This document shows, in pieces, positions 7,876 to 55,421 of a DNA stretch of 64,000 nt. Under the pieces are notes generated by a model. It was not told the DNA's origin, did no database searches, and saw nothing but the letters and a program-made list of their open reading frames with translations. The DNA is taken from assembly GCA_965178125.1 (NCBI GenBank), contig OZ237758.1:310001-374000 (forward strand). The letters run 5' to 3'. The number at the start of each line of letters is the position of its first letter. Within the stretch, counting starts at the first letter, position 1. The DNA comes from Bilabrum cf. latius. Taxonomy: Eukaryota. A program made the translations under genes and the position numbers.

Positions 7876-10800
7876 ATGGCAGAGCAACCGCCGCCCGGGC
7901 GGCTTGAGCAGTAGCTCGCTGTTCTCAGCAGATTCGGCGGGGATGGAAGCCGATCCCTGACGCAGGATATCAGTGTAAGCCAGCAGTGTGTATCATCTTG
8001 CTAGGAAGAGTTCGCCTATCAGGCAATACGTTTGACTGCATGTGCAACTGGTTATAACTATCGCAGCTGTTTAAAATACTGGAGGACTTCTCGGACACGT
8101 TCCAGGGCCAGGCGAAGGTAAGACTTGCGCACAACCACGATCTTGTTTCTTGAGAGCCGTGTGCTATTCTTTTTGCACATCACACAAGTTCTGTAGGATG
8201 TCCCGCAGTCTGTGATTGATGATCTGGAGGACCTCCAGTTTCAGGCCGAGGCCACTGAGACTCAGCTGCAGTCAACCGTGAACAGCTTGATGCTGCTGGC
8301 TGAAGTGCAATTCGTCGAAAATGTGAGGATTACCCGTCACCACGGCTGAATCACCGGGTTAACAGACGCATTTAAATCATTTGTGCCCCTATTATGACTG
8401 TGGTATCACGTTGACCCGCGAGCACCCCTTCACACATCCATGTCGCAGCGCGTCATCGACGAGGACGAAATCACCCGTGCGGACAGCGAGCGCAAGACCC
8501 AGGACTCGGCGGGAGAGGAAAGCAAAGCCGCTGAGGATCAAGACGCAGCCGCAGCTACCTCCTAGGCGAGGGGTCCCATGGAAGAGGCCTTGCTCGCGGG
8601 CGTGGAGGCCCTCTCCTTGGACCCCGTCTTCCTCGACGCTAACCCCGTTGAGGCCTTGGAGATGGGGACCCGCAGGAGGCACTGGCGGGGAGCAGAGGCC
8701 GACCAGTACGACGAGCCGCTGCCCTTTGTGATCGGCACCCAGGACTTCGTGAACAGTGACGACGTGGGTCTCGACGTCGAAGATGAGGAAGACGAGGAAG
8801 AGATGGCGGCGGCGGGAGGCTATGCCACCGTCGCTCCCACCGAAGGGCACGACCCAGCCGCTGCCAGCATCGCGGCAGGGGAGTCGCCGTTCGGCCCCGA
8901 CCCGAGCGTTGTGGGAGGCGGGTACGGTGTAGGACAGGATCACGCTGGCGGTGCTGCTGCCGGCGGCAATGGCGAAGTTCCGTACGGCAACGTGCCCGGC
9001 AGCGACCCTGCCGCGCCATACGCGGCAAGTAACTCCGCTGACCTGCCTCCAGATGGACAGTCCCCCTTCGACCAGCGAGGTCCAATGCCAGGAGGGGCGG
9101 CCATGGCGAGCGACCAGCCGCAGCCAACGGGTGCCCCCGCAGGAGCTGGGGGCTTTGGGACCGCGCCGGGGGCTGCCGCCGTTCAGGGCCAGCCACCTTC
9201 CGGTGGCGGCCACGTGGACGAGATGGAGGACGATTTGAGCAGCGGCAGTGACGAGGAGGGCTTCGGCGGGCCGGGGGTTCACGACGATGTGGATGCGATC
9301 GGGGGAGAGGAGGACGACGAGGAGGAGGAGGCACTGCTGGCCTCGGTAGCGGGCGGCAGGGGCGCGCCTGGGCCAGGACCTGGGCCAGCGAGGGGGGAGG
9401 AGGATGACTTGTCGGAGGACTCGCACGGCGATGGCGATCACGAAGCGGCGCCGCAGGCACAGGTGCTCGCCTCGCGTGGCGGGGTTGCAGCCGAGCTAAA
9501 CGCCAGGCTGGGCGTGGCTCCCCGACCCAAGCCAGCCGCCAGCAACCCGACGGCTTCGACGGCGGTCGTACCGCACGCCGACGATGGGGGTGAGGAGGAG
9601 GACGACGATCTTTTCGCCCCCGTCTCTTCCAGCTCGCCTGCCCCTGCCCCAGCACCGGCTCCTTCACGTGCGCGTGCACCCGCACCGGCACCGGCACCTG
9701 CACCCGCAGCACGCGCGCCCAGCAACGATGGCCTCGACGACCTACTAGGCGAGGACGACGGCGGCCTGTTCGGAAATGAGGGCGGCAGCAGCAGAAAGGC
9801 AGCCCCCGGCGCCAGCGCTCGGAGGGCGGTGCCCTCTTCTCGTCGCAATACGGGGGGCGGGGGCGGCGGCCTGTTTGACGACGAGGACGAAGACGAGATT
9901 TTCGCGCTAGAGGACGTGAAGCCTGCTCCCAAGGCAAGACCAGCGGCAAGCGGCCGGGCCAACAGGCCGACTGGGGCAGCCCGTGCCCCCGCGGCCGCCA
10001 GCAGCTCGTCTCTGTTTGATGACGATGGCCCCTCGGGGCTAGGCGGCATGGACGACCTCGGGCTGGGTGGTGGCGGCGGGGATCTCGATCTCGGATTCGG
10101 TGGGCTGGGTGGCTCTGGCGGAGGCCTCTTCGCCGACATGGATGGGGAGGAGGCCAGGCCGCGCGCGCAGCCAGCACCAGCACCCGCGAAATAGGACCCG
10201 CCCAAGCCTCCGAAGTCGACACCACCCACGAACACGAGAGCACCGGCACCGGCACCGGTACCAGCGCCAGCGCCAGCGCCAGCACCAGCACCAGCGCCAG
10301 CGCCAGCACCAGCACCAGCACCAGCACCAGCTCCTTCAGGCGGCATGGATCTATTTGGTGATGATGACGGCGGTGCAGACTAGACTGCAGACTCTGGCAT
10401 CGCCGGGGGACTTGGTGATGACATCGGTGGACTGTTTGCTGCCGATGAGCCAGCGGCCACACCTGCCCCTGCCCCAGCCCCTGCACCCGCTGTTGACGCT
10501 GCTGCTGCAGATGCTGCTTCCGAGCAAGATGAGGATGCAGGCAGTGGCGCTGGCATGCGCACGTCAGGTGGGACTCGCCTCCCTCCTGGTGCGCGCAAGC
10601 TGCCCTTCCCCATGCCTGGCGTGCGGCCCAACGCGGGCCCCCGGCCAGCCGCCGTGTCCCGGCCCGCAGCGCATGACAGCGACAGCGACGGTTGGGGCAG
10701 CGGTAGCGACAGCGAGAGAGATTTGGCGCCGCCACCACCAGCGCCGCCGGTTGCTGCGCCTGCGCCAGAGCCAACACCAGCGCCCGCAGCTGGGGCGACT

Positions 10801-12039
10801 CAGCCGTCAGGGACTGCGGCCGATGGAGACGATTCAGACGGGTCGAGTGATGGCGGTGCACCGCTTGTGTCTGCCACAAGTGGGACTCGCCTCCCTCCTG
10901 GTGCGCGCAAGCTGCCCTTCCCCATGCCTGGCGTGCGGCCCAACGCGGGCCCCCGGCCAGCCGCCGTGTCCCGGCCCGCAGCGCATGACAGCGACAGCGA
11001 CGGTTGGGGCAGCGGTAGCGACGAGGACGGAGCACCACCGCCACCACCACCAGCTGCGGAGCCGGCGCAGGCACCGGCAGCTGCTGCTGCATCGTCTGTT
11101 TCCCCCAGGCGCGTTCAGTTCGACCTATCGGGTGCCGCAGATGAGAGCCAGAGCCAAGCCTCGTCACCCGCGGCATCGGAGCCTCCCAAAGCCTCGCCGG
11201 AGGATGCGTTCGGCGGGGGGTTGTTTGACGCCGGCACGGACGACTTGCCGGACACAGCGCCCAGCGGGAGCGGTGTCGACGACCAGGCGCAGGACTTTGG
11301 GACGCTGTTCGGCGCCTCTGGCGACGATGCTGGAGCGAATTCGCCACCACCTGCCCCAACCCCGACTCCGGCTCCCGCAGCATCCAGCACAGCAGATGCT
11401 GGAATCGAAATAATCAGTGACGATGAGGGCGATGCGGACGGCGGCTCCTCTGCGCCTCCCAGGCGAAGGGGAGGGCCAGGACGGCGAAGAGGGCGGGCTG
11501 CAGCAGCAGTACCGGCACCAGCGGCAGCCCCTGTTGCGGCAGATCCGTTTGGTGGGCAGGACCTCAGTTTCGGGTCCGGTGACTTTGGAGGGTTCGGCAG
11601 CTCGGCCACCTCGGGCTAGTCAGCGGCTCAGGCGGGGGAACAAGTCGCGCCCAGCGGCACTGCCGCAGCTAGCAGCGACCCGTTTGGAGAGCAGGAGATC
11701 TCGTTCGGGGGTAATAGTGACGAGGAGGACGGAGGGGCGCCGCCACCACCGCCCGCCTCTGCTTACGGTGCCGCTGGTGGAGGTGTCGCATCGGAGGAAT
11801 CGAGTGGAAATAATGGCAGCTCCGCGGTGGATGCATTCGGGGCTGGGGGATTCGGCGACTTGTACGGCGACGCAGGTGGCGATGCAGCTGGGGAGACAGG
11901 GGATGCTGGATTTGGCGATTTGTTCGGTGGAGGGGGCGAGGACGAGGATGGTGGCGGTGCGCCCCCACCGCTGCCAAGTGGAGAGGCCGGCGACGACCTC
12001 GATGGGATCTTGGGGGAGGAGAAGGGCCTCTTTGACTGA
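7876..12039 (+). CDS. WASHC2: WASH complex subunit 2 (FAM21)-like; exons 7876-7974, 8067-8117, 8197-8322, 8449-12039
   Basis: Spliced N-terminus LFKILEDFS...VNSLMLLAEVQFVEN|RVIDEDE and PLPFVIGTQDFVNSDDVGL match the FAM21 head domain. The long acidic tail has many LFa motifs (GLFDDEDE, SLFDDD, GLFADMD, DLFGDDD, terminal GLFD). Three GT-AG phase-0 introns and several in-frame TAGs. Confidence 0.88.
10568..11022 (+). repeat. 143-bp direct duplication inside WASHC2 (10568-10710 and 10880-11022)
   Basis: Two apparently identical copies, 312 bp apart, encoding GTRLPPGARKLPFPMPGVRPNAGPRPAAVSRPAAHDSDSDGWGSGSD. Confidence 0.9.
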
Positions 12040-12253: not shown

Positions 12254-14629
12254 TCAAGAAATCTAGCAGCCACCGCTGCTGCTTCGACGTCGGAGACGTC
12301 GACGCCTTTCTGCTTTCTCTTTTTCAATGCGAACTCGCTCTGCCTACTCTCGCTGTTCCTTCTCTCGCTGCTACTGGGCTTTCCTGGCATCTTCCGCCGC
12401 CTTTCTCACTCGCTCAGCGGCTGCTTGCATTTCCTGCTGCTACTTGGCCCGCTCCGCTTCCTGCTTCTACTGCTCCTCGCGCTCCTTCTGTCGCTGCTCT
12501 TCGAGCTAATCGTGAGCAGTAGCGCTGCTTCTGAGCTTCTGTGCCACATCCTTTGCCTCCAGCGACAGCCTGCTGGCTTCGTCCCTCAGCTGCTTCATGA
12601 TTGACTCCTTGCCCTCTGCTGGCGAGGCAGCCACGTCTGAGACCACGTCGTCCACTGTGAGGGTCGGGGCACACTAGCGATCCGATCCAGATCCAGACCA
12701 CTGCACACTGCACTCAAACAACAGGGCACACAGCTACCGCTCATTGCTAGAGGCGCTGCTTGGGCCACTTCCAGCCGCAGCTGCGCCGCTGCTGACCTCA
12801 GGCTTCCAACTGGTCGTGTCTTTGATCTGTAGGAGGGCCTGTCCCGGAGATTTGCGTCCCAAGTTGGTTGCCTGCCGCTTAGTCGCTCCCATAACATCAG
12901 TGCACAGCTTCTTGATTTCCTCGATTGCGTCTGCATTGGCTTGCTCGGCGATGCTGTGGACCGCTCCTGCGAAGGCGTCCAGCTCGGCAGCCAGGGCTCG
13001 CTTCTGGCTCGAGCTCCCCGCCTGGCCCTCCCTCTGCTTGAGCGCATCGAGTGTTTCCTGCTCCCTCCGCTTGTGCCTATCGGCGAACCTCCTCAGGATT
13101 TCAGGGCTTTCCTTGATGAGAGACTCCCTCGCGCCTGACCCCCTGGACTCAAGTGCTGCCTGGAGCCCCTGCACAATGGCGGTCTGCTTGTCCTTGAGCG
13201 CAGAGGCGAGGTCCTTGTGGGCCAGCGCCTCCTCGACACTCATGGTGGTCGGGCCAAGTGCGCAAGATGCAACCAAATGAAGGAGACCTGGTAGCTCCAG
13301 CCGAGTCGTCTCGATGGCTGCATCGCAGTGAGCCAGCACTCCAGGCGACTCGATGACGCTACTCGCAAACTGCTCGATTCCGTCCTTGGCTGCCGTCAGT
13401 GCCCTCTGGTTGTACCGCTCCAACAACCCTGGGATCTGCGCGCCTTTCTGGTCGCAGTGCTCCACCACCTCGGGTAGGATGCGGGCGATGGCACCCGCCT
13501 GCATGGGCACTCGTCCCGGCATGCAGCGGGGCGTCTCGTCCTGGATGCAAGGCACAATGTGGGCGTCGCAGAATACCTCGAGCGCCTTTATGAAGTCCAT
13601 TCTCGACTGCTTGAGTTCTTCATCGCCTGCCTTGAGCTGCACCGTGGGAAGGAGCACCACCGTGCCGCGCTCGAATGTGCGTCGGAACGCAGCGCGCCTC
13701 TGCGCCACCAGGCCCCCATCCTCGTCTTCGTCTTCTCCGTGATCTGCTTCCCTTTTGCTCTCTTCACTTGCAGATGCAGCTCCTCCCCCGGCAGCCTCCT
13801 TGGATTCTCCGCTTTCATCAGCGGCGCCAGCGCCAAAGATTCTCTCATGCAGGAATGCCTTGTCGTCTGCCATAGTGTCGGGGTCGTCGCCCGCGTCTCG
13901 CTGCATCACGACCACTGGGCCCAGGCCGATGCGCTGGTCCGAAGCTGCGGTGCTCTCTGAGGCCTCCATGCTATCATCCTCTTTGGCGCAGGCGAATAGA
14001 GTTACAAGATCGGCCATTTGCTGCAGCCGATCCAGAGTGGCGGCCTGCTGCGGGACTGCTTGTCCGGCGTGGCTGATGGTGAGCCCACCGCTGGACAGCA
14101 GAAGCGCCGGGAGCATGACTTTGTGATCGTAGTCCCCGCTCCTGTCACCCTGGCCCTCTGTGTCAACGATCATGAGAAGAAGGTCCTTGGAGCGTCCGAA
14201 GCAGCCCTTGGGGATCAGCACCACGGCAGCGTCGCATCCTTCCGTGCACGCATCGGTCGTGTCACCCGTCTGGAAGCAGAGCGGAACCCACAGTCCAGTT
14301 ACCCTACACCTTACCCAGTCGATTTTGGAGCGACTTGAGCCGATCGCAGAGAGCTTGATCTTCTCACGGACATCTGCCTCGCCCCAGCCTCTTTTTCCCA
14401 GGGAAGCAAGCAGCCACAGCACAATGAGATTCATTGTCGTGCTCTTTCCAACACGAGCGGGGCCTTGCACGCAAATGACTTTGACTTGGGTGTCTGGTGC
14501 AATCCTCTGCATCGCTTCGAACACCTGACTGTCTCGTGTCTCGAATCTCAAATCCTCCGCATCCTCTTTCCGCCTCGTCCATGGCGCCACGCAGATGCAA
14601 ATTTCAGCGACTTTAGCTGGTTCCGACAT
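12254..14629 (-). CDS. GBP/atlastin-family large GTPase A (791 aa), coiled-coil tail, polybasic + CaaX (C-Q-I-S)
   Basis: G1 GPARVGKS, G2 DACTEG, G3 DTEG, G4 QRD. Reading through TAGs from 12734 gives an E/Q/R/K coiled coil ending RRRLRRRSSSGGC*IS then TGA at 12254. Confidence 0.85.
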
Positions 14630-14769
14630 AGGTATTGTGCTCTAGATACAGCGTCTCTAAATTTGGGTCAACACTGCGCGTTCCGGGGGTGGAGAAAATC
14701 GGGTTCCGGTTTACCCGGCTTTCGCCAGTCCGCTGGCCACTGGCAATGCATAACCAGCACAGCCGAACC
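14630..14769. promoter_or_regulatory. Putative bidirectional promoter of GBP-A/GBP-B
   Basis: 140-bp spacer between divergent ATGs. Contains tggagaaaatcgggttccggtttac (14690-14714), similar to a motif in the GBP-C/D spacer. Confidence 0.55.
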
Positions 14770-17103
14770 ATGGAATCCAAGAAAGTACAAATCGGAACTC
14801 TTCCACTTTGGAAGTGGAATCGGTCAGCTCGTCGGTTTGCCGTGCCGGGAGTCCCGGTGCTTCGCAGCATGCTGGACAGAATCGAGCCCGCCATTCCAGT
14901 GGTTGGCGTCGTGGTTCACGGGAAGGCCCGCACAGGAAAGAGCATGATTCTGAATCAAATCGCAAGATGCGTGCTACTAGAAGCATATGGCAGCATAGAG
15001 GGGCTGGAGATAGACCGATTGCACCCGGATGTCCCGGCACCTGTAATTGGCCGGTGCCCTTCTTCGGGTGTTCCCGTCCCTCTGGCCTTCGGTGTGGGGC
15101 ATGGCGCGAGGCCATGCACGAGCGGCGCAGACGGCTGCTTCATTTGCCTCCCTGCAGGCGCCTTTGGGCGCTCCTAGCCATCTGTTGTCCTGCTGATCGA
15201 CTGCGAGGGCACCGGCGACAAGGATGCAGGATACGACGCAAAGGTCATCCTGCCTGGGCTGGCGCTGTGCAGCGGGGGCGTGTTCATCGCAAACATGAAG
15301 AACCCGCCCATGTCGCACGCGGTGCTCTCTACCATCGAGAATGTGCTGCATGCAGCGGCAGTCGTGGGGCGCGGGAGACAAGCTCACCCGGGGGACGCAG
15401 ACAAAGCGACCCTGGCTCTGGTGGCTCGGGATGTGCAGCTGGAGGCAACCAAGACGCTGGAGGATGAGGAGGCAGATCTTATGCGTGATGAGCCTGAGGA
15501 TCCATTCGCTCCCGCAGCATCGGACGGAGCCTAGAAGCGGAACCAAGCCCGCGCCACCATCGCGGCAACATTCAAGCAGTGCCGGGTGGTACGTGTGCCG
15601 CCGCCCGCCGGTCGGCAAGACGCAGCCAGGGCTTGGCCCAAGAAAATGGACGAAGCACTGAATGCTATTGATGCCGCCTTTGAGCGGAATGTACTGCCTT
15701 GTCTCCAGGATGAGACACCGCGCTGCATGCTGGGAATGGCCGACGTACCGCTGGACACGCAGCACGTGCTGTCGGCGATCGAGGCTATTGTGGACCAGGC
15801 AAACGATGCCACGGACAAGCTGCGCCCATCAAGCATCCTTGAAAGCATTAAAGAAGGCGCCGTCAATGCAGTGAACGATCGCCTGTGCGCTGGGATTGAG
15901 GCTGCCCTCGTCACCGTGCAGTCTGCAAGGCTACTTGATTCGACTGCCTCGACTGAACTGGCCGCACATGCAGTGCAGGCCGTGCAGCAGACGCTCATAG
16001 AGCGTGCTTACTTCCAAATGCGCAAGATGTACAAGGCTGCCACGCGCGACGACGCTGTGGCCGTGGTCCGAAGCGCCGATGGCCCGGTGCAGCGGCAGCT
16101 GAGAGTCCTCGCGGCTAGCATGGAGAGCAAGGCGAGAGACAGGTGCGCCATCATTACTGGAAACATGCAGCGAATGATGCACCAAGTAGCGGACGAGTAG
16201 CGTGTTGACAAGATGAACAAGCTGAATGCCAAGCTCAATGACGTTGTGTGCAGCTTGGGACGGGAGGACCATGCGAACTTTGAAGGGATGCTCGCCGGTC
16301 GGCAATAGCAGGTACAGCAGCTGCAATAGCTGCAGGTGGACACGTCGAGGATAGATGCCAGCAGGGAGCTCTTGACGAAGATGCACGGCACCTGCGAGCA
16401 GACTCTGCGCGAGTCGGCAACTGACCTCGTTGGGTACGTGGGATAGTCGCCTGACTACAGCTACGGGGCTGCGGTGAGGAATGCGACCCGCCAGCTGGAG
16501 CAGCTGCTCATATCTACAGAAGGTGCCGATGATGCGGGAGCTGCCATGGGTGATGAAGCTGGTGGTGGCGCAGCTGGTGGTGGTGCAGCTGGTGGCGGGG
16601 TCCCAGACGGTATTGCCTGCCAGCTGCACGCCGGCGGCCAGCTTCTCATCGCGAGCGGGCTCATGCGGCTTGATGCAGCTGGTGCTCCTGTCGAGCCGCC
16701 TGCATCCGAGATGAACAAGCTGGTCAAGCATCTTACTGATGACAACGACGCTATCAAGCAGTTGTGCACCACTGCCAGCGCTGAGCTGGAGCAGTACCGC
16801 TCTAGGCTCGCTACTGAGGTGCAGCGAGCCAAGGACGGCGTGTCCGAGGCCATCCGACTTAAGGATAACGCCAAAGAGCTGCAGGCATCCATCGAGGCCC
16901 GCAGAGCAGAGGCATAGAGGTTTGCAAGTGACTTTGCCGCCAAACAGAAGGCAGCTCAGGAGCGGATCCAAGCAACCGAGGCCGCGATGCAGAAGGCAAC
17001 CAGGGAGCACGAAGAGTATGTGGCTGCAACCGACAGGGAAATCGAACGTTTACGGCATATTACTGAGAATGCAAGCAGTGGTGGTGGGTGCCTTGTCCTG
17101 TGA
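14770..17103 (+). CDS. GBP/atlastin-family large GTPase B (777 aa), C-terminal CaaX CLVL
   Basis: G1 GKARTGKS, G2 RPCTSG, G3 DCEG, G4 ARD. Single frame with 7 TAGs, two of them inside a Q-rich run (caa tag cag gta cag cag ctg caa tag ctg cag). Ends ASSGGGCLVL-TGA. Confidence 0.85.
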
Positions 17104-17355
17104 GTGATATAGGCATGCGTGTGCAAGAGATGAGCTCTGAGTGCTTTCCTGCGCGTTGCTGCACCTGCCGCGACTCTGCAGGTGTTTGCTTGGGAGACTG
17201 CGCAGATCGGATTTGCAGCACTGTGCATTGAGTATTCAATAAGGAATCCAACCTTTGTGTGAACAATGACCACAGCGTTACAGTGCTACTAGTGCTTCCA
17301 TGCAGTGTGCAGCGGACAAGGGGATCTCACGCCCGACCATACGCTGAAATTCACG

Positions 17356-20241
17356 TCACTCGTCTACTTTCTTGGAGGCCCACCCGTAGGCTGCACCCAT
17401 GCCACCCATTGCAAGAGATGCCCCGCCGGTCAGGAACGCACTACCAATGGTCAATCCGGCAGACACAATGCCGAGCACTGCTCCGAAGATCGATGGGCCC
17501 CTGTTCAGCCGATCGATCATATCCTAGACGGCACGCTCCGCCTGCTGGAGCTGCTGGTCCAGAGCCGCTTTGTCCTTCTGCCTCTGCTTCTTCAGCGCCT
17601 CGAGCTAGTCTTGGTTCTGCTTGATTTGCTCCTTGTGCTTATCCTCTGTCTTTTCCACTTCGAGCTTCGTATTCTCGAACTCTTCGCGCAGGCTGCGAAG
17701 CCTCGCTCGTGACTCGTACGCGCCGCTCATGTGCAGGCGGCTAGACTGCAGCTGCTGAGATAGCTACGAGAGCATCTCCAGCTGAATCGAGCGCTGCTTG
17801 GTGCTGGAGGTCTCCAAGTCTCGCATGAATGTAGCCAGGTGCGGGTTCTTACCTGGTTCTGCCACAGCCACCGCCAGGGCGGTCGGGCGGAAGCCGCACA
17901 GGACGATGTTGGCCTGGCAGCATCCCCACAGCTACACGAGCCTAGGTAGGGGTGCATCGCCCTCATCATCCGATTTAGCACTTGAAAAAGCTCCGATCGG
18001 CTCTGGTCCTGCACTGCTAGAGCAGACTCCACTGTCATGATGCTCCTAGCCCTCAGCACCATCAGCACCATCACTCGGAGGATCGGACGCACCCGCACCC
18101 GACGCAGGACCGCTCTCGCCACTGCTGTGGTCCGTTGCTGAGCCATGGCTCGATGCACCAGATTCCATTGACCCCGTCTCGGCTGGTGGCGAGCTTGCGC
18201 CGGTTGCTGCGTCTGGTTGCATGCGTTTGAGTAGCTGCATAGCGCCCATCTGCGCTAGGCACTCTGTCCTGTCCGTACGTGTCGCAGCCTCATCACCTTC
18301 GCAACCATCCTGCAATGTAATGTCACGCTCCGAATGGGTGAGCTCGATGTCTCGCAGCGACCCTTCAAGGTGAGACTGCAAGTGGCGCTGTGCCGTCTTC
18401 ATGGCCTGGAGGCGGGCCGAAGCGTCCTGCTCCAGCGCGTCCTTGGCAGCCTAAATGGCCGTCTTTGCGGAATCATGCGCTGCATGAAACTCCTTCAAGA
18501 CATCATTATCGCTCTTGGCTGATCCATCTGCGGTATACCTCATGCAGGACGCCTGCTCGGTTGCTTGGCGAGCCTGCAGCATGCTCTGCTGCAGCTCGGG
18601 GATGCGGCGCCCTGACACGGCAACATGGTAGTGGCGCTGCCAAACCTGCTCAAAGGCAAGGACAGCAGCACTCTGGGTGCTTGATAGCAAGTGCTTCCGA
18701 TCATCCTTGGCCCGTTCGTCAAGGGCATGAGCTACGAGGGCAGGCCCGCACTTGGCTCCGGTCAGCTTGTCCAACGCAGCGGTCAGGCCATCGCGTGCGC
18801 TGGGACAGTCAAACATGGACTCTGCCCAAAGCTCCTTGGCTTTCAGCTGCACAGTCTCTCGGATGCGTTTCTCCATCAGCTGGCCGACCGCTTGTCCGAT
18901 CCCGCGTGTGCAGCCGAGAGGGCAGTCCCGCGAGATGGTCTGGTCAAAAGCCTTGCGCTGCACGGTGTCAGAATACTCCCGTCCCGCTCTTTCGATCTGC
19001 TTTAGTGTGTGCGAGAGCCACGATGACAACCAACCTTTACGAGGGTCCTGCACTGCATTGGAAGACTCCACCACGTCCGACAGCACCTGCAGAAGCTTGC
19101 CACCCACCATGGGGTAGGCATCCAGGCCGAAGACCTTGTCTTCCTGCGTGCCCGCTGCCTTGATACGGTTGCCAAGCATGGCTGCAAATGACGCCCGCAT
19201 CTGCGCTGGCAGCGTAGTTTTGGAAGTGCCAAGCCGCACGATTTGCACGTCATGGCACGCCCTCCACAGCCTGCTCCTCATGCGATTCCGGCGGCTCGCT
19301 CCGGATGCAGGCGCAGACGCGGATGCAGGCGCAGACGATGCCGCGTCGTCCTTGCCTTCTTCCTCGGGGCCCAGACCATCATCATCATCTCCACTGGCAG
19401 GACCGACGGCCTCTTTCTCTAGCACCCGCTGCTCCACCGCGCTCCTGTGCGGCCTGCCCTGGTGCCACCCGCCCCGGTTGCTGTCGGGGCGAGCTGGCTC
19501 GTAATGGACATCGACCGGACCGGCATTACCATGCGCATCTACTGCGAAATCGCGGATGCCGGAATCTCTCGTCAGGTTGACGAATGTTGGCTTTACCCTG
19601 TCGGCGTTGGCCATGTGCATCCCGATGAGCTCGGCGGCGTCGACGAATTCCTCCATCGAGGAAAGGACGCTGTGCGGCTGGGGCGGATTCATGGTGTTGA
19701 AGATCAGCAGGCCGTTGCTGCTGGCCGCCAGTGCGGGAAGGGTCACCCTGAGGTCGTGTGTCGTATCTTTATCCCCGCGCCCTTCGCAATCGAACAGCAG
19801 CACGAGCAGGTCCGTGGCGCGGCCGAGTGTCCCTGCAGGGAGCAGGCATGCGAATGCGTCCACTCCCGCCGTGCAGGGAATGTCCAAATTACTCGCTTTG
19901 AATGCCGTCGGCACCGTTTCTCCTGTCCATTGGCACTCGCTCCATTCCGGCACTGATGCGCCCTCCCACAGCGGAGCCAGGCTCGGACGGGCCTCTCCTC
20001 CTTGCCCTGGATCAGCTCGCCCCGCTCCTGGCAGCTTCACCAGCCATGATGCCATGTGACACATAAGCGAGCTTTTGCCCGTCCGAGCTGGCCCGTGCAC
20101 CGACATGGCCATGTACGGCGTGCTGCTCAGGCCGCTCGACTGCAGAGCGCGGGCGACTCTCTCGTCCCACACTGTGCCGAACTTGCCCCTGTCATCTGCC
20201 TTATACACCGGAAACAGCGCACAGCGAACCTCGCTGCGCAT
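17356..20241 (-). CDS. GBP/atlastin-family large GTPase C (961 aa), C-terminal hydrophobic Gly-rich membrane segment
   Basis: G1 GPARTGKS, G2 IPCTAG, G3 DCEG, G4 TRD. Continues through TAGs into a coiled coil and the tail SIFGAVLGIVSAGLTIGSAFLTGGASLAMGGMGAAYGWASKKVDE-TGA. Confidence 0.85.
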
Positions 20242-20409
20242 ATTGAGGTTGATATGAAGACTACGTAGTTCAGATTCCGGTTTCTCCAGGATTGTCCACT
20301 GGAGAATCCCGGTTCCGGCTTACATTTGCAGGAAAAAGTTGATCCACGCGTGTTGCCCGCCTCACAACTGCAACGGCACCAGAAACCTGCACCTGTTTAT
20401 AGGTGCGCA
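20242..20409. promoter_or_regulatory. Putative bidirectional promoter of GBP-C/GBP-D
   Basis: 168-bp spacer between divergent ATGs. Contains tggagaatcccggttccggcttac (20300-20323) and the inverted repeat ttctccag-N9-ctggagaa. Confidence 0.55.
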
Positions 20410-23007
20410 ATGGCAGCAGCATCAGGTCAATCATCTGTGCCTCCTCGGTCAAGGGAGCCTGTTCTGATGATGAGATGCGAGCTGTGGAAGTACGACAAGA
20501 CGGTGAGCAAATTTGTCGTCAAGATCCCTGCCAGGGTTTAGGAAGCACTTCGCCCGTACGAAGATGTACCAATGGTAGTGATCTAGTCGCAAGGTCCAGC
20601 AAGAATCGGCAAGAGCACCTAGAACAACTACATTGTAGCGTGGGTGGCCCGTGCAGCTCATTGCCCGGTCGAGGACATCGACAGCATCGACGATTCCAGC
20701 GAGATATGCTATGCTGGATTCCCCGGGATCAGCACAACCGACACCCCTTTAATGGAAGCATCCGAAACGATCGAGGGGGCCCAAGTCCTGAACGCCTTCG
20801 GAGTGTCTCACGGATCTGAGACGTTCACGCGAGGCGCAGATGCGTGCTTCATGCTGCTTCCCGCCGGCAGCTTCGGCAGCCCCAAGCGCCTGCTGGTGCT
20901 GGTGGTAGACTGCGAGGGCGGCGGCGCGGAAATCCCCGAGTACCACGCCAAGAGCATGCTCCCCGGCGTGATCTTCTGCGGGCGCGGCGCCGTTCTTGTG
21001 ACCGACACGGTCAAGGGGCTGAGGCAGCAGGTAATCGACAAGCTGTCAAACGTGGCAGAAGCCGCAGAGATCTACGGCATGGGAATGAAAAAGGCAGCAG
21101 AGAAGGATGGAGCCGGCGCGGCCGGCGCAGCTGGGCCAGCTGGCGGCTAGGACCCCTTGGCGGGTAGCACGTTGGGTGCTGCTGTGATGCTGTGCAAGAA
21201 CTACGACCTGAAAAGGTCCGAGACACTGGAGGAAACGGAGAGCAAGACATTTGGAAAAGAAGACGCCGCCTTTGACAAGGCTGCCAGTAGCCGCAACACT
21301 AAGAGAAGCAACCTCAAAGCAGTGTTCCGGCAGTGCGCTCTAGCGCATATCAGGTCCCCCAACGGCGAGTCCAGGCCATGCGACTGCAAAAACATGGTGT
21401 CCGACCTCCGCGGCATGCTAAAGCGCGTGGTGCTGCCCCTGCTGCAAGACCACGATCCCAGGCGTCTCTTTGGCAGCCCGCACCTGCCTTTGACCGCGGG
21501 CACGTTCGTGGACATGCTCCCCGCCGTCGTGCAGCAGTCGAACGAGAAGGAGCTGAGCGTGCCTTCCCTTCTCGAGGCAATGGTGAGCGCGGGCGTGCAG
21601 CGTGCCACAGAGGCGGGGCGAGCGGCCAAGCACGCGGCGTGCCTGGTTGCAGGTGATCCAACGGTCGAGCTGCCGGGGCTGTCCATGGGAGGGCTGGTGC
21701 AGTGCACTGAAGCGGCGGCCGGGATCGTGACTGGGGCCGCCGAGGCAGAGGCAGACAAGAACCCCGTGTGCAAGGAGACTCGGCTGCTCAAGGATGCACT
21801 GGAGGCGCTGGACAAGGAGACGCAAGAAGCCATCAAGCCAATGCTGCTGCAGCGGCTCAACGGCGACTACAAGAAGGCAGCTGAGTGCGGGCGGGTGCTG
21901 GTGCACCTGCTGGCAGAATGCGAGAGCAAGTCGTCGTGGGCCGAGCCCGAGCTCCTCGAGAAGGAGCTCAAGGAAGGCTGCCCTGAGAGCCTCGAGGGAA
22001 CACCGGCGGATGAGCTGCAGGACCTCCGGTGCGAGGTCGAGGCTCGGAAGGATGTAATTGACAAGAAGCTGGCGGAGAAATCGAGCGATCTTTCCGCGTC
22101 CATCCTGGGCGGCGTGATGAGGACAGTGGGACCGCTGGCGGAGAGCGCGGTGGGGAGCGTGGTAGGCGGGTCATCTCTTCCGGGTGCATCAGCTGCTGGG
22201 GGCGAGGGGGCGGCGGGCGAGGCCAGCTCTGGCTCGGCTGCAGCGGACGTGCTGGCCAGCGCCGTCAAGACAGCTCTAGCCGTGCAGCAGGGCGCTGCAC
22301 CTGAGACAGATGGCCCTTCATCCGGGGCAGGTGCAGGTGCAGGTGCAGGTACAGGTGCAGGTGCAGGTGCAGGTGCAGGTGCAGGGGCTACATCTGCCAC
22401 TGGTGTAGCATCGGCCACCGAGCCTGGGTCAGACGTCTCGCGGGAGGAGATCGAGGACAAGCTGCGGGAGAAGCTGGAGTCGATCGCTGCCGCGGCGCCA
22501 GAGGGGAGCATGCGTGCGGCCGCTGACCTGCTGGCAGCCGTTGGGCTGCAGGACCGCGGGGGCGGCGCTGCGGGAGCTGCTGATCCTGCCCTGTCCCGGA
22601 TCGTGGAGAGCTCGCTGCAGCAGCTGCAGTGCAAGTACGAGCAGCTGCGTGGGCTGGCGGTGCAGCAGCTGGCCGGCATCCAGTTCGAGACGCAGCGGCT
22701 GGCCGGTGAGCAGCAGCGCAAGGAGCTCGAGGAGCAGGGCGAGGCCGTGAAGGAGCAGCTCAAGGCCGCGCAGGCCAGGATGGAGCAGGACGCAGAGAGG
22801 CACCGTGAGCAGATGCAGGCCATCAAGGACCAGATGAGGGAGGACAGGGAGAGACAGGAGAGGGAGATGCAGCGCATGCAGATGATGCAGCAGCAGGCCA
22901 TTGATGCTGCCAACGACAGCGGTGGCAGTGACTTCGCAGCGTTTCTCGGTGCGGCAACGGACATCATCCGAACCGTCGTGGCAGCGAAAACTGGGGGAGT
23001 AGCTTGA
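20410..23007 (+). CDS. GBP/atlastin-family large GTPase D (865 aa), amphipathic C-terminal helix, non-canonical G4
   Basis: The P-loop VI*SQGPARIGKST*NN is flanked by two TAGs and is invisible in the ORF track. G2 ETFTRG, G3 DCEG, CKN at the RD position. (AG)n linker, Q/E coiled coil, tail DFAAFLGAATDIIRTVVAAKTGGVA-TGA. Confidence 0.85.
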
Positions 23008-23052
23008 TCGGAGTGAATATGGACGCCATGCACATGTTCTATGGGCAAATAT

Positions 23053-23106
23053 AAATGCACTTGCATATAAACATAAAAGAAATGCACTTGCATATGTACA
23101 TAAAAG
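23053..23106. repeat. AT-rich 27-bp tandem duplication
   Basis: aaatgcacttgcatataaacataaaag followed by aaatgcacttgcatatgtacataaaag (2 mismatches). Confidence 0.85.
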
Positions 23107-23166: not shown

Positions 23167-23239
23167 AACACATACCGGGTCTCGATCCCGGGACCTCGAG
23201 AACCGTAAACTCGCGCGCTTCCAACTGCGCCATATGTGC
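23167..23239 (-). tRNA. tRNA-Arg(ACG), atypical
   Basis: Reverse complement GCACATA TG GCGC AGTTGGAA GCGC G CGAGT TTACGGT TCTCG AGGTC CCGGG ATCGAGA CCCGG TATGTGT T folds as a 73-nt cloverleaf with anticodon ACG, G37 and A20. A T7 run (Pol III terminator) follows at 23154-23160. Confidence 0.8.
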
Positions 23240-54200: not shown

Positions 54201-55421
54201 GAGTAGCAGCTTGTCGACGCCCTGCAGTCATCCCCACCCATCATGAAGCAGCAAGCCAGCCTAGACCAGATGTCGCGCTTGCAGCAAGCGTTCGAGCGGG
54301 GTGTTGCGGGGCGTGAGGAGAAAGCATACCGCAAGACCATGCTTGATTTGGAGAGAGAGCTGAAGAGAATTGGCGCAGATGGAAAGAAGAACTCATAGAA
54401 GGTCCCCAAGAAGAACGCGGCGCAGAATTCAATGTCCTTCATCCAGTTAGCGGCTGCCATCGACACAAATGCGTCCCCGGTCACACTGCAAGACAAGGCC
54501 GACTTGTCTCGGTGCCGGAACACGCAGCTGCAAGACTGCGACATAGGGACAACTGGAGACCGGGAGATCCGCTTGACGCCGGGTCAAGGCCTTAGCTCAC
54601 CGTTTGCACTTACTCGGCACGGCATCTTTAGCGGCGGTCTGCATTTCCTCAACCTACGCATGCAGTCAGACGGCAACCTTGTTCTGCAGGATGGCGACCG
54701 CATTTTGTGGGACATCTGCGATGGAGGTCGCCAGTGCAGCACCGATGGAGTCGACGAGCAGCACACGCTGCTGCTCGACGGCAAGGGCGACCTCATGGTG
54801 CTCGGCTCCGACCCAACGGACGTAAAGTGGATCGTCGGTGCGTCGAACAAGGGTCCGGTTAGGGACCTAGTTATCCAAGAAGACGGGAACCTGGTCATCT
54901 ACAGGTAGACCGGAGAGGCCATCTGGACGTCTGTAACGGCCGGATTCCTTCGCTCGCCCAACATGCGAGTCGGCGAGTGGGATCGATCGCTCAACTACCT
55001 CTAGTACAGCCAGGGCGACGTGATTTGCAGCGCCATTGCCGTCTCGTTTTGCGAGCCCGCGTTGACACGAGATGATGAGATCCGCTCGTGCATGTTCCGT
55101 GGTGAGCGTCTGGACCAGGATCAGTTCCTTCGGGCGCCCGGGGGTGACGCATTCTTGACCATGCAGGGCGACGGAAACCTGGTGCTGTACCACCACGGCA
55201 AGTCCGTTTGGGAATCTGGGACTGATGGAGATGGAGAGGGGCCCTTCGCCGCAATCTTAGATATTAAAGGATCGTTTTAGGTGGTTGACCGCAACAAGAA
55301 TGTCCAGTGGAGATCAGATCGCGACATGAAGTATGCAGTGGTCAACGTCTAGGTTGGGCCTGAGCGGGCAGAGTTCCTTGGCTACGATGGGGTATCAGGC
55401 CCTAAAGTAGTGAATGACTGA
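42285..55421 (+). CDS. Giant (4378 aa) putatively secreted bulb-type (B/GNA) lectin repeat protein
   Basis: One frame over 13,137 bp with ~32 TAGs and no TAA/TGA until 55419. Hydrophobic N-terminus MQIVVGMTVGLLACCANYAAS. Lectin motifs QTDGNLVL, QDDGNLVL, *EDGNAVL, QSDGNLVL, QEDGNLVIY, QGDGNLVLY. Confidence 0.85.
46020..51720 (+). repeat. Four dispersed ~700-bp intragenic repeats (starts ~46020, ~47067, ~49788, ~50960)
   Basis: Each begins ASKQAIKDIDSFAF...KKVLETNADLVRYDALVKYGEE. Copies 1, 2 and 4 are near-identical in DNA; copy 3 only over its first ~320 bp. Confidence 0.92.
51960..53235 (+). repeat. ~4.5 tandem copies of a 252-bp unit (84 aa, D/G/P/E-rich), followed by ~2.5 copies of a 54-bp unit
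   Basis: Unit DGASGKPGDAKIQEDYFGSGGHDAEVEPNVGPDAGKNP... with period 252 (52644 to 52896), then PANHGGDKIDYEYYNPED repeats. Confidence 0.92.

What the first reader, a model, noticed from the sequence alone, without database searches (positions are those of the whole stretch)
12254..23007. Hidden cluster of four divergent GBP-like GTPases in two head-to-head pairs: candidate protist cell-autonomous immunity locus
Seen: four intronless 777-961 aa genes arranged <-A B-> <-C D->. All have GxxRxGKS (Arg at the position of the hGBP1 arginine finger), a xTxG G2, D[TC]EG, a helical stalk and a coiled coil. They share lineage-specific features (a CxxxGxxVP insert in A-C; LQDETPR/LQDHDPR) but are otherwise very divergent. 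Their full lengths appear only with TAG=Gln. Known: GBPs are dynamin-superfamily GTPases that cluster in animal genomes and coat pathogens or pathogen-containing vacuoles. Inference: co-expressed pairs forming hetero-oligomers against ingested bacteria or giant viruses, arising from an old duplication of a two-gene cassette.
Basis: partly seen in the sequence, partly recalled or inferred. Interest (0 to 1): 0.85.

Follow-up and report, generated by a model that had tools for sequence, protein, structure and literature searches.

The report
Four divergent GBP-like GTPases, clustered
Four neighbouring genes of a GC-rich protist that reads TAG as an amino acid encode very divergent relatives of the guanylate-binding/atlastin large GTPases, two of them ending in lipid-anchor (CaaX) signals, but whether they act in immunity remains untested.

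Summary
With TAG read as a residue, 12254-23007 carries four intronless paralogous genes arranged <-A B-> <-C D-> (791, 777, 961 and 865 aa). All four have GxxRxGKS, TxG and D[TC]EG motifs. They are real genes. TAG is a sense codon across the whole window (102 in-frame TAG in 14 ORFs; 13 of 13 complete ORFs end in TGA). Assembled contigs of three public runs stop at the gene borders.

An AlphaFold model of B's G domain matches only the GBP/atlastin/RNF112/SMG9/Sey1 group (GBP1 Z 16.1; the next unrelated fold scores Z 8.0). A family profile hits the GBP5, GBP2 and GBP1 G domains (best E 4.7e-5). Single sequences stay below Pfam's GBP threshold, and phmmer with A finds only 7 relatives among 1.84 billion proteins.

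New here: A ends in polybasic + CQIS and B in CLVL (CaaX boxes). C ends in a hydrophobic tail. D has no anchor and KN in place of the RD motif.

Not supported or not tested: an immune role, hetero-oligomers, and duplication of a two-gene cassette (the tree is star-like). Clustered GBP families in protists are already described. This is a new, very divergent variant of a known kind.

The parts
12254..14629 (-). Gene A, 791 aa with TAG=Q (8 in-frame TAG), stop TGA. GBP/atlastin-type G domain, helical region, charged C-terminal helix, polybasic stretch and CaaX.
   Evidence: (Pfam GBP 17.5 bits, cutoff 21.1). Contigs of runs X6-X8 reach 14665 and 12101.
14770..17103 (+). Gene B, 777 aa from M64 of the 840-aa ORF (7 in-frame TAG), stop TGA. 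G domain, helical stalk, helix 645-769, CaaX.
   Evidence: Pfam GBP 20.4 bits, E 3.2e-4; contigs begin at 14761 and 14770, end at 17259, collinear, no joints.
17356..20241 (-). Gene C, 961 aa (6 in-frame TAG), stop TGA. G domain, long helical region, hydrophobic C-terminal tail.
   Evidence: Pfam GBP 12.1 bits; one contig 17237-20240; P0008 is 89% identical over its 596 aa.
20410..23007 (+). Gene D, 865 aa from M53 of the 917-aa ORF (4 in-frame TAG), stop TGA. G domain with KNYD where A-C have xRD. No CaaX and no hydrophobic segment; short C-terminal tail that may be amphipathic.
   Evidence: contigs begin at 20360-20395, end at 23024-23055; P0009 is 84% identical over 416 aa and keeps KN.
14441..14464 (-). 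A P-loop GPARVGKS. The other P-loops: B 14920-14943(+) GKARTGKS, C 20071-20094(-) GPARTGKS, D 20593-20616(+) GPARIGKS.
   Evidence: HMMER aligns it with GLYRTGKS of the GBP5 and GBP2 chains.
14153..14164 (-). A G3 DTEG. The others: B 15199-15210(+), C 19780-19791(-), D 20908-20919(+), all DCEG.
   Evidence: Aligned with DTEG of GBP5 and GBP2.
13895..13903 (-). Candidate G4 'QRD' of A. B 15424-15432(+) ARD, C 19564-19572(-) TRD. D 21196-21207(+) reads KNYD instead.
   Evidence: The position after helix 3 fits by my reading only. No tool aligned it, and the AlphaFold model is under pLDDT 50 there.
12257..12310 (-). A C-terminus ERRRRLRRRSSSGG-CQIS: polybasic stretch plus CaaX box. The Q of the box is itself a TAG codon.
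17089..17100 (+). B C-terminal CaaX box CLVL, preceded by SSGGG.
17359..17499 (-). C C-terminal Gly-rich hydrophobic tail (residues 915-961), a candidate membrane anchor.
   Evidence: Kyte-Doolittle 19-residue mean up to 1.93; sequence.
14630..14769 (.). A/B divergent intergenic region, 140 bp between the two ATGs. Holds TTCCGGTTT at 14704.
20242..20409 (.). C/D divergent intergenic region, 168 bp between the two ATGs. Holds TTCCGGTTT at 20275.

Best explanation
The locus holds four expressed paralogues of a lineage-specific, very divergent branch of the GBP/atlastin group of dynamin-superfamily large GTPases. The host is a GC-rich, intron-poor eukaryote that decodes TAG as a residue, most likely Gln.

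Shown: each protein has an N-terminal large G domain of the GBP/atlastin fold, with the P-loop arginine, the TxG and DxEG motifs and, in A-C, an RD motif. A long helical region with no detectable sequence family follows.

Inferred mechanism: like GBPs, they bind GTP, dimerise through the G domains, and use the in-cis P-loop arginine to hydrolyse it. They then assemble on membranes, to which they attach by different C-terminal anchors. A would be farnesylated (CQIS, next to a polybasic patch). B would be geranylgeranylated (CLVL). C would insert a hydrophobic tail. D has no anchor and an altered base-recognition motif (KN for RD), so it would act in solution or be recruited by its paralogues.

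The biological role of such nucleotide-driven membrane coats or tethers here (defence, handling of phagosomes, or general endomembrane work) is not determined.
For: Genes and code:
- Long ORFs appear only with TAG read as sense.
- In 14 ORFs there are 102 in-frame TAG against 2 TAA, and 13 of 13 complete ORFs end in TGA.
- The single TAG of the conserved methylcrotonyl-CoA carboxylase beta gene aligns with an invariant Q in two solved homologues. It also aligns with Q in a 98%-identical relative whose ORF shows no break at that place.
- A TAG-to-CAG variant sits at codon 652 of A in another run.

Transcription hint: in runs X6, X7 and X8 (two studies), contigs start and stop at the gene borders, collinear with the genome. 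B runs 14761/14770-17259, C 17237-20240, D 20360/74/95-23024/55. Word depth differs about tenfold between neighbours C and D. A run that looks like DNA (X2) spans 14234-22317 in one contig.

Fold:
- The LG-domain model of B has pLDDT 69.7 and pTM 0.72.
- VIA-align against 48,161 chains gives GBP1 Z 16.1 (246 aligned, rmsd 4.5, 17% identity), atlastin-1 15.5, fly atlastin 15.3, RNF112 15.0, GBP2 14.4, atlastin-3 14.2, SMG9 13.4 and Sey1p 13.4. The next hit is Rab27a at 8.0.
- Foldseek gives 59 hits at E<=1e-3. All 35 rows shown are RNF112, atlastin or GBP chains, best 9.1e-9.

Sequence:
- A profile of 8 family members hits GBP5 LG (E 4.7e-5, 26.1 bits), a longer GBP5 chain (7e59, 487 aa; 1.5e-4), GBP2 (7.9e-4), RNF112 (0.0066), GBP1 (0.0069) and atlastin-1 (0.09).
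- Pfam GBP scores are 20.4, 17.5 and 12.1 bits for B, A and C.

Anchors:
- CQIS and CLVL end A and B. None of the other 11 complete ORFs of the window ends in C-x-x-x (C-termini).
- C's tail has a Kyte-Doolittle mean of 1.93.
- Human and mouse GBP1, 2 and 5 carry CaaX boxes needed for membrane and pathogen binding (passages of PMC6400534 and PMC8565484).

Constraint:
- The G-domain core of C is nearly unchanged in its 89% ortholog.
- In A, 22 synonymous against 13 non-synonymous variant codons.
Against: - No single protein reaches Pfam's GBP gathering score (cutoff 21.1), and D has no GBP hit at all.
- No GBP_C or other family is detected in the helical part. The only such hit is in D, at E 0.48 on a coiled-coil stretch.
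- phmmer of A against solved structures finds nothing. Against 1.84 billion representatives it finds only 7 proteins, none a canonical GBP.
- The models rest on alignments of 8-11 sequences. Residues 180-250 of the LG model, which hold the putative G4 motif, are under pLDDT 50, and the full-length model has mean pLDDT 53.8.
- Structure does not separate GBP from atlastin: their Z scores lie within 1 of each other.
- The RNA nature of X6-X8 is the tool's guess. It labels X6 'probably DNA', and no listed holder is on record as RNA.
- Prenylation, GTP binding and oligomerisation are all inferred. A's CaaX exists only if its TAG codon is read through. I could not check whether the CaaX boxes are conserved in orthologs.
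Confidence: 0.72

Rival explanations
1. One reading: the four genes are dedicated cell-autonomous immunity effectors. They would coat ingested bacteria, pathogen vacuoles or giant-virus factories, as hetero-oligomers of the head-to-head partners.
For: - The architecture parallels the pathogen-coating GBPs: G domain with P-loop Arg, long helices, polybasic stretch plus CaaX.
- The family is multi-copy and clustered, as GBP families are in other taxa, with up to 16 paralogues in Paramecium (PMC6400534, passages).
- The paralogues are very divergent (22-26% identity).
- In the nearest relative on record the orthologs of C and D are 89% and 84% identical, against 98% for the metabolic enzyme MCC-beta. 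It is not shown that these come from the same relative.
- Gene A is polymorphic in several runs.
Against: - No expression data under challenge exist here.
- The variant codons in A are mostly synonymous (22 to 13), and the G-domain cores are conserved, so there is no sign of an arms race in what I could measure.
- GBP relatives outside animals have other or unknown roles: the function of Dictyostelium Gnbp is unknown (PMC8565484), and plant GBPs act in development as well as immunity (PMC12489281, abstract only).
- The head-to-head layout is the ordinary one in this window.
- Word depth of contigs differs about tenfold between C and D, which does not suggest stoichiometric pairs.
Confidence: 0.3
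2. They are constitutive endomembrane tethers or fusogens, doing the job of atlastin or Sey1/RHD3 or a related housekeeping membrane-remodelling task (ER, phagosome or contractile-vacuole membranes).
For: - Atlastins match the G-domain model as well as GBPs do (Z 15.5, 15.3 and 14.2 against 16.1 and 14.4), and they come first with Foldseek after RNF112.
- C carries a C-terminal hydrophobic anchor, as does the Dictyostelium GBP homologue, which has been proposed to tether membranes (PMC8565484).
- The polymorphism sample indicates purifying selection.
- Contigs that look like transcripts occur in three runs of two studies with no stated challenge.
Against: - A, B and D have no hydrophobic segment (no 19-residue Kyte-Doolittle window above 1.4 outside the G domain). 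Atlastin and Sey1 fusion needs two transmembrane helices (recalled knowledge).
- The region after the G domain is 400-600 aa long, not atlastin's short three-helix bundle.
- There is no Pfam RHD3_GTPase hit at E<=1.
- The family profile scores GBPs above atlastins (26.1 against 15.3 bits).
- Four paralogues this divergent are unusual for a housekeeping fusogen.
Confidence: 0.2
3. The ORFs are artefacts or pseudogenes: TAG is a true stop, and the long frames arise by chance in GC-rich DNA or from decayed genes.
For: - GC-rich DNA gives many long spurious frames.
- Public gene calls of the relatives are all truncated pieces.
Against: - TAG is in frame 102 times in 14 ORFs, including conserved genes, while TGA ends 13 of 13.
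- A conserved Q is encoded by TAG in MCC-beta.
- A TAG/CAG polymorphism exists.
- The codon-position GC pattern is unchanged after the first TAG.
- Contigs run to the TGA, not to the first TAG.
- The four frames are mutually homologous at E 1e-14 to 1e-32.
Confidence: 0.02
4. The cluster was brought in by a giant virus (an endogenous viral element) and is not a host family.
For: - Giant viruses encode GBP/atlastin-like proteins. Yasminevirus 'atlastin-2-like' matches at E 2e-7 and a Megaviridae 'guanylate-binding protein' at 2.6e-5 in BFVD.
- One Nucleocytoviricota cluster with Pfam GBP is among the language-model neighbours.
Against: - The viral matches are no closer than the cellular ones.
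- The genes use in-frame TAG and TGA stops like their housekeeping neighbours.
- GC content is within the range of the window.
- No viral hallmark gene lies beside them. The neighbours are LRR, ankyrin, CLASP, importin-like, methyltransferase and MFS genes.
Confidence: 0.03

Closest known systems
Vertebrate guanylate-binding proteins GBP1, GBP2 and GBP5
   Same: - Large G domain of the same fold (GBP1 Z 16.1, GBP2 Z 14.4).
- The P-loop GxxRxGKS aligns with GLYRTGKS, and DxEG with DTEG.
- A long helical C-terminal part ends in a long helix.
- C-terminal CaaX boxes occur in a subset of the paralogues, one next to a polybasic stretch (CaaX of GBP1/2/5: PMC6400534 passages).
- The family is multi-copy and clustered.
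   Different: - Only 15-17% identity over the aligned G domain, below Pfam's threshold.
- A family-specific insert of about 35-40 residues with CxxxGxxVP lies between helix 1 and switch I (my estimate from the sequences).
- Acidic, low-complexity inserts lie around the RD motif.
- The helical part has no GBP_C similarity.
- One member has a hydrophobic tail, and one has KN for RD.
- There is no interferon system in a protist.
Atlastins (metazoan ER fusogens) and Sey1p/RHD3
   Same: Same G-domain fold group (atlastin-1 Z 15.5, fly atlastin 15.3, atlastin-3 14.2, Sey1p 13.4). Atlastins share the P-loop arginine (GAFRKGKS in the alignment).
   Different: - No pair of transmembrane helices in A, B or D.
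- The stalk is much longer than atlastin's.
- No Pfam RHD3_GTPase hit.
- The profile scores atlastin-1 lower than GBPs (E 0.09 against 4.7e-5).
GBP homologues of other protists (single Dictyostelium Gnbp; clustered families such as 16 paralogues in Paramecium tetraurelia)
   Same: GBP-type G domains occur outside animals, sometimes in clusters, and sometimes with a C-terminal transmembrane anchor like C's tail (PMC8565484 and PMC6400534, passages).
   Different: Those were found by HMM or BLAST as clear GBP homologues. The present family escapes single-sequence searches. I did not see CaaX boxes mentioned for protist GBPs in the passages I read, and I did not search for them specifically.
RNF112 (ZNF179) and SMG9 G domains
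   Same: RNF112 is the best Foldseek match (E 9.1e-9) and scores Z 15.0. SMG9 scores Z 13.4.
   Different: Pfam shows neither a RING domain nor the Smg8_Smg9 family. The domain architecture is different. These matches reflect the shared G-domain fold only.
GBP/atlastin-like proteins of giant viruses
   Same: Same fold (BFVD: Yasminevirus E 2e-7, Megaviridae 2.6e-5).
   Different: They are no closer than the cellular proteins, and no viral context surrounds the locus.

Membership tests
GBP/atlastin group of dynamin-superfamily large GTPases (Pfam GBP, PF02263, covers both) | Large G domain with the GBP/atlastin fold | tested here: met
   B's LG model: top 10 of 48,161 chains are GBP1, atlastins, RNF112, GBP2, SMG9 and Sey1p (Z 16.1 to 10.9), then a drop to 8.0. 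Foldseek: 59 hits at E<=1e-3, and all 35 shown belong to this group. Modelled for B only; the other three are tied to it by homology.
GBP/atlastin group of dynamin-superfamily large GTPases (Pfam GBP, PF02263, covers both) | Score at or above Pfam's gathering threshold for PF02263 (21.1 bits) | tested here: not met
   B 20.4, A 17.5, C 12.1 bits; D has no hit. A profile of 8 family members does reach GBP5, GBP2 and GBP1 chains at E 4.7e-5 to 0.0069.
GBP/atlastin group of dynamin-superfamily large GTPases (Pfam GBP, PF02263, covers both) | P-loop GxxRxGKS with the catalytic arginine; switch I Thr; G3 DxEG | tested here: met
   4 of 4 for each motif. P-loop and G3 are aligned with GBP5 and GBP2 by HMMER. 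The switch I Thr is assigned by motif and position only.
GBP/atlastin group of dynamin-superfamily large GTPases (Pfam GBP, PF02263, covers both) | G4 reduced to an RD motif in place of NKxD (motif recalled) | tested here: inconclusive
   QRD, ARD and TRD in A-C at a plausible place; KNYD in D and KNYN in its ortholog. No tool aligned this stretch, and the model is under pLDDT 50 there.
Guanylate-binding proteins proper (GBP1-7 type) | C-terminal helical domain of the GBP_C type (PF02841) | tested here: not met
   No hit in A-C. D gives E 0.48 on a coiled-coil stretch, 10.2 bits against a cutoff of 24.3. A long helical region exists, but homology is not shown.
Guanylate-binding proteins proper (GBP1-7 type) | CaaX prenylation box in a subset of paralogues, with a polybasic stretch | tested here: met
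   A: RRRRLRRR-SSSGG-CQIS. B: SSGGG-CLVL. This is 2 of 4 paralogues and 0 of the 11 other complete ORFs in the window. Actual prenylation is not testable here.
Guanylate-binding proteins proper (GBP1-7 type) | Groups with GBPs rather than atlastin, Sey1 or RNF112 in a phylogeny | not tested
   No reference G-domain sequences could be obtained. Profile scores favour GBPs, and structure ties them with atlastins.
Guanylate-binding proteins proper (GBP1-7 type) | Cooperative GTP hydrolysis (to GDP and GMP) and nucleotide-dependent oligomerisation | not testable with these tools
   Needs biochemistry. The complex prediction was not accepted for these translations.
Atlastin | Two adjacent transmembrane helices followed by an amphipathic tail; short three-helix-bundle middle domain (recalled) | tested here: not met
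   A, B and D have no hydrophobic window outside the G domain. C has one hydrophobic stretch at the very C-terminus, after about 600 helical residues. For C alone the test is inconclusive.
Sey1p/RHD3 | RHD3_GTPase domain (PF05879) and C-terminal transmembrane helices | tested here: not met
   No PF05879 hit at E<=1 in any of the four. Sey1p is a structural match at Z 13.4, below GBP and atlastin.

The most novel reading that the evidence does not exclude
A protist outside animals and plants keeps a prenyl-anchored GBP-like defence system. Farnesylated A and geranylgeranylated B would coat membranes of ingested bacteria or giant-virus factories. They would recruit the anchor-less D, which has an altered nucleotide-base motif, much as non-prenylated human GBPs are recruited by GBP1. 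C would act from a resident membrane. That would mean lipid-anchored GBP coats either predate animals or arose twice. It would also provide a unicellular system, intron-poor and already sequenced in several studies, in which to test the primordial function of GBPs.
Probability: 0.25. Interest if true: 0.7.

Novelty: new variant of a known kind. Interest (0 to 1): 0.48.

Why it matters
GBPs are central effectors of cell-autonomous immunity in vertebrates. Their function outside animals and plants is largely unknown, although homologues exist in protists (PMC6400534, PMC8565484). This locus shows a branch so divergent that standard annotation would miss it twice: once because of the TAG reassignment, and once because every member is below Pfam's threshold. 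Even so, it keeps the catalytic P-loop arginine and, in two members, the CaaX lipid-anchor signal that governs pathogen coating by human GBP1, 2 and 5. If the organism can be cultured, the set of four differently anchored paralogues is a compact system for asking what GBP-like GTPases do in a free-living unicellular eukaryote. Otherwise, this is a well-supported annotation of a new subfamily and not a new principle.

Tried and rejected
- Whole-genome search: no genome is held for this window, so no census of paralogues, prenyltransferases, Sey1/RHD3, suppressor tRNA or eRF1 was possible.
- phmmer of A against solved structures: 0 hits at E<=1.
- The 4-sequence full-length profile gave only E 0.021 for GBP5. 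The 8-sequence N-domain profile was needed.
- The search for homologous proteins with alignment A6: none at E<=0.01 among 8000 scored candidates. The family's own fragments did not come back either, so this blank says little.
- Metagenome scan: alignment A2 was too variable. With A3, 1 locus was confirmed out of 171 pattern matches. It is L001, the same protein as P0007, on a 2.1-kb contig whose upstream ORF is not GBP-like.
- Cluster look-up of the 7 relatives: all are singletons with no names.
- Earlier findings of this scan: nothing by place, words or sequence.
- Full-length AlphaFold model of B: mean pLDDT 53.8. Its wide structural search was swamped by long-helix matches, with atlastin-1 only at rank 28, Z 7.8.
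- Sequencing runs: no RNA holder listed. The transcript reading of X6-X8 rests on contig borders and depth only.
- Complex prediction of the A:B G domains: not accepted for translations under another code. No verdict, and not pursued.
- Protein atlas with B: not accepted for the same reason. With database protein P0008 it gave GBP, RHD3 and SMG9-type neighbours at 0.91-0.96, which I treat as leads only.
- Cassette-duplication test: the tree has 4 of 7 inner branches unsupported and gives no (A,C)(B,D) grouping.
- Shared promoter motif: TTCCGGTTT occurs 3 times in the window (expected 0.17). The third copy lies in the divergent region of an unrelated gene pair, so it is not specific to this family.
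- Which residue TAG encodes, tested on the internal repeats of the 4378-aa gene: partner codons are CAG in one column, GAG in one, CAG and GAG in one, and GCA and GTT/GTC in one column each. This does not decide between Q and E (two searches were failed set-ups of the same test).
- Literature: a search for 'stramenopile, UAG, glutamine, genetic code, nuclear' gave 5 papers, none whose title or abstract start reports such a code. The search listed ciliate, trypanosomatid and Amoebophrya cases only.

Full report
**1. What is in the sequence**

Under the standard bacterial table, 12254-23007 holds only broken frames. These are a 631-aa ORF at 12734-14629(-), a 596-aa ORF at 18451-20241(-), a 616-aa ORF at 21157-23007(+) and pieces of B.

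Reading TAG as Gln gives four long frames, each ending in TGA:

| Gene | Coordinates | Length | In-frame TAG |
|---|---|---|---|
| A | 12254-14629(-) | 791 aa | 8 |
| B | 14581-17103(+) | 840 aa | 9 |
| C | 17356-20241(-) | 961 aa | 6 |
| D | 20254-23007(+) | 917 aa | 5 |

None holds an in-frame TAA. The ORFs of B and D overlap the starts of A and C. Contigs of public runs begin at 14761/14770 for B and at 20360-20395 for D. The real starts are therefore most likely M64 of B (14770, 777 aa) and M53 of D (20410, 865 aa). This leaves 140 bp and 168 bp between the divergent start codons.

The four N-terminal domains are mutually homologous at E 1e-14 to 1e-32, and the window holds no fifth copy. 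Over the full length they are only 22-26% identical to A.

- GxxRxGKS, 4 of 4.
- [CF]TxG, 4 of 4.
- D[TC]EG, 4 of 4.
- CxxxGxxVP in A-C but not D.
- [LI]QD[EH][TD]PR in A, B and D but not C.

**2. Is TAG really a sense codon?**

Yes.
- In 14 ORFs of the window there are 102 in-frame TAG and 2 TAA. Both TAA lie in the doubtful ends of one ORF. All 13 complete ORFs end in TGA.
- The conserved methylcrotonyl-CoA carboxylase beta gene (37980-39572, minus strand) has one TAG. It aligns with the Q of the conserved 'NQA' in two solved homologues. It also aligns with Q in a 98%-identical relative whose ORF shows no break at that place.
- In another run, codon 652 of A reads CAG instead of TAG.
- GC at the three codon positions is the same before and after the first TAG of each gene.
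- Contigs of X6 cover B and C end to end without a single difference, so the TAGs stand in those assemblies too.

Gln is the best reading. A test on the internal repeats of the 4378-aa neighbour gene could not exclude Glu. The status of TAA is open.

**3. Are the genes expressed, and do they have introns?**

No listed run is on record as RNA. The contigs of X6, X7 and X8 (two studies; the tool guesses RNA and marks X6 'probably DNA') nevertheless behave like transcripts:
- They stop at gene borders: A to 14665; B 14761-17259; C 17237-20240; D about 20360-23055, with a break at a simple repeat at 22318-22395.
- Word depth differs between neighbours. In X6 it is about 25, 38.5, 18.5 and 198 for A, B, C and D.
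- Run X2 crosses 14234-22317 in one 12-kb contig.

I read this as a weak but consistent hint that all four genes are transcribed, without introns and with very short 5' leaders. A loose end at 15233 in all three runs encodes a G3-like stretch with its own TAG. At least one more expressed paralogue therefore lies elsewhere.

**4. What the proteins are**

Sequence evidence:
- Single sequences are too divergent for routine detection. Pfam GBP scores are 20.4 (B), 17.5 (A) and 12.1 (C) bits against a cutoff of 21.1, and D has no hit.
- phmmer of A finds nothing among solved structures.
- Against 1.84 billion representative proteins it finds 7 hits. All are fragments of orthologs (P0006, P0008, P0009) or of other members of the same small family (P0007, P0010-12). 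None is a canonical GBP.
- A profile of eight N-terminal domains reaches GBP5 (E 4.7e-5 and 1.5e-4), GBP2 (7.9e-4), RNF112 (0.0066), GBP1 (0.0069) and atlastin-1 (0.09). The P-loop aligns with GLYRTGKS, and the G3/helix region with DTEG and the stretch after it.

Structure evidence:
- The AlphaFold model of B's first 397 residues has pLDDT 69.7 and pTM 0.72. It is high for residues 1-178 and 250-345 and low for 180-250.
- It was aligned without pre-filter to 48,161 representative chains. It matches GBP1 (Z 16.1, 246 residues, rmsd 4.5), atlastin-1 (15.5), fly atlastin (15.3), RNF112 (15.0), GBP2 (14.4), atlastin-3 (14.2), SMG9 (13.4) and Sey1p (13.4). The next hit is Rab27a at 8.0.
- Foldseek agrees: 59 hits at E<=1e-3, and all 35 rows shown come from this group. 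The poorer full-length model gave the same families.

The G domain therefore belongs to the GBP/atlastin group. Structure cannot separate GBP from atlastin. The profile scores and the architecture favour GBP.

**5. Architecture beyond the G domain**

B's model shows helices from 289 to 581 and one long helix at 645-769. No Pfam family matches this part in any of the four.

- A ends in ERRRRLRRRSSSGG-CQIS.
- B ends in SSGGG-CLVL.
- C ends in a 47-residue Gly-rich hydrophobic tail (Kyte-Doolittle up to 1.93).
- D ends in a short tail, possibly amphipathic, with no anchor.

CQIS and CLVL have the form of CaaX boxes. By the usual rule (recalled), a final Ser directs farnesylation and a final Leu directs geranylgeranylation. 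None of the other 11 complete ORFs of the window ends in C-x-x-x.

Human and mouse GBP1, 2 and 5 carry such boxes, which are needed for membrane and pathogen binding (PMC6400534 and PMC8565484, passages).

One caveat applies. The Q of A's box is itself a TAG codon, so the box exists only under the reassigned code.

D also differs in the presumed base-recognition motif. It has KNYD where A-C have QRD, ARD and TRD, and its ortholog has KNYN.

**6. Relatives and evolution**

The family is rare in public data. It comprises 7 proteins, all singletons without names, and 1 metagenome contig.
- P0008 is 89% identical to C over 596 aa.
- P0009 is 84% identical to D over 416 aa.
- Both are listed with a longest contig of 7026 bp. 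This suggests, but does not prove, that the C-D pair is kept in a close relative.
- The G-domain cores are almost unchanged, and the differences lie in loops and helices.
- The closest MCC-beta on record is 98% identical. Whether it comes from the same relative is unknown.
- Variants of A seen in other runs affect 35 codons, 22 synonymously and 13 not (the table was cut, with 16 rows not shown). This points to purifying selection in that part.

A tree of the N-domains is star-like, with 4 of 7 inner branches unsupported. It does not pair A with C or B with D, and outside fragments are as close to B as any window paralogue. The proposed duplication of a two-gene cassette is therefore unsupported.

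Divergent pairs are also the usual layout of neighbouring genes in this window. The one motif shared by both intergenic regions, TTCCGGTTT, also occurs in the divergent region of an unrelated pair at 7782.

**7. The organism**

The neighbours are eukaryotic genes: CLASP, importin-11-like, ankyrin, LRR, MFS, a methyltransferase and mitochondrial-type MCC-beta.

Among the best 120 MCC-beta homologues the only named eukaryote is Cafeteria roenbergensis, at 75% identity. In a tree, the window's protein sits in a 20-row clade apart from all named bacteria, and in a 10-row subclade with Cafeteria (SH-aLRT 83).

This is a weak pointer to a heterotrophic stramenopile-like protist. I did not find a paper reporting a TAG reassignment in such a lineage.

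**8. How it most likely works**

Shown: the GBP/atlastin-type G domain with the catalytic motifs, the long helical part, and the C-terminal signals.

Inferred from the biology of GBPs and atlastins: GTP-dependent G-domain dimerisation, hydrolysis helped by the P-loop arginine, and assembly on membranes. A would reach the membrane by a farnesyl group plus basic patch, B by a geranylgeranyl group, and C by its tail. D would be soluble or recruited by the others.

Nothing here decides among them.

Clustered GBP families in protists are already described, with 16 paralogues in Paramecium (PMC6400534). Giant viruses also carry GBP/atlastin-like genes.

**9. Verdict**

The label 'GBP-like' is supported at the level of the GBP/atlastin G-domain group, and the CaaX boxes strengthen it. 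Membership in GBPs proper is not shown: there is no GBP_C domain, the Pfam scores are below threshold, and no phylogeny was made. The immune, hetero-oligomer and cassette-duplication inferences are untested or unsupported.

This is a new, very divergent variant of a known kind, of moderate interest.

Noticed in passing
window 1-64000: Genetic code. TAG is a sense codon throughout (102 in-frame TAG in 14 ORFs) and TGA ends 13 of 13 complete ORFs. TAA is almost absent in frame (2, both in the doubtful ends of the MFS ORF), so its meaning is open. The genome is about 60% GC and intron-poor. My two literature searches found no report of such a code in a stramenopile-like lineage.
   Followed up: partly
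window 37980-39572 (-): Complete methylcrotonyl-CoA carboxylase beta gene (530 aa, 1 TAG at a conserved Gln). The nearest named homologue is Cafeteria roenbergensis (75%). A 98%-identical protein exists in a public run assembly. In a tree the gene sits with Cafeteria, apart from named bacteria.
   Followed up: yes
window 42285-55421 (+): One uninterrupted 4378-aa ORF (32 TAG) with bulb-type mannose-binding lectin domains (Pfam B_lectin, E 4.4e-16). Going by the translation, it holds several copies of a repeat of roughly 330 aa and several copies of a Gly/Asp-rich repeat of about 85 aa. This may be a giant surface or adhesion protein.
   Followed up: no
window 7782, 14704, 20275: TTCCGGTTT occurs three times (expected 0.17; 1 of 100 shuffles reached 3). 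Each copy lies in a short region between divergently transcribed genes, including one pair unrelated to the GTPases. It is a candidate general promoter element.
   Followed up: partly
window 14761-14770, 20240, 20360-20410, 17237-17259: If the X6-X8 contigs are transcripts, the 5' leaders are 0-50 nt long, and the 3' ends of the convergent genes B and C overlap by about 20 nt.
   Followed up: no
window 12590-14003 (gene A): A second haplotype or strain variant of A appears in runs X2, X6 and X7. It differs at about 5% of bases over 12891-13383 (23 of 493), while the listed contigs of the RNA-like runs X6 and X7 over B, C and D show no differences.
   Followed up: partly
window 15233 (loose ends of contigs in X6, X7, X8): Contigs that share the G3 region of B continue into different sequence that encodes EGTGD-TAG-DEA. 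This points to at least one more expressed paralogue outside the window.
   Followed up: no
window 23167-23239 (-): tRNA-Arg (anticodon ACG) lies just downstream of gene D. It is the only tRNA in the window, and no tRNA reading TAG is present.
   Followed up: no
window 21196-21207 (gene D) and P0009: D has KNYD (KNYN in the ortholog) where the paralogues have xRD. An Asp-to-Asn change at the base-recognition site shifts specificity towards xanthine nucleotides in other GTPases (recalled). D also has the highest contig word depth in three runs.
   Followed up: no
window 8440-12039 (+): A 1199-aa Ala/Pro/Gly/Asp-rich low-complexity ORF with no Pfam match. It contains a near-exact internal duplication of a segment of about 45 aa (TRLPPGARKLPFPMPGVRPNAGPRPAAVSRPAAHDSDSDGWGSGSD).
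   Followed up: no
BFVD and protein-atlas results: Giant viruses (Yasminevirus, Megaviridae, and a Nucleocytoviricota cluster of 90 members) encode GBP/atlastin-like G domains. They lie at about the same structural distance from this family as the cellular ones.
   Followed up: partly
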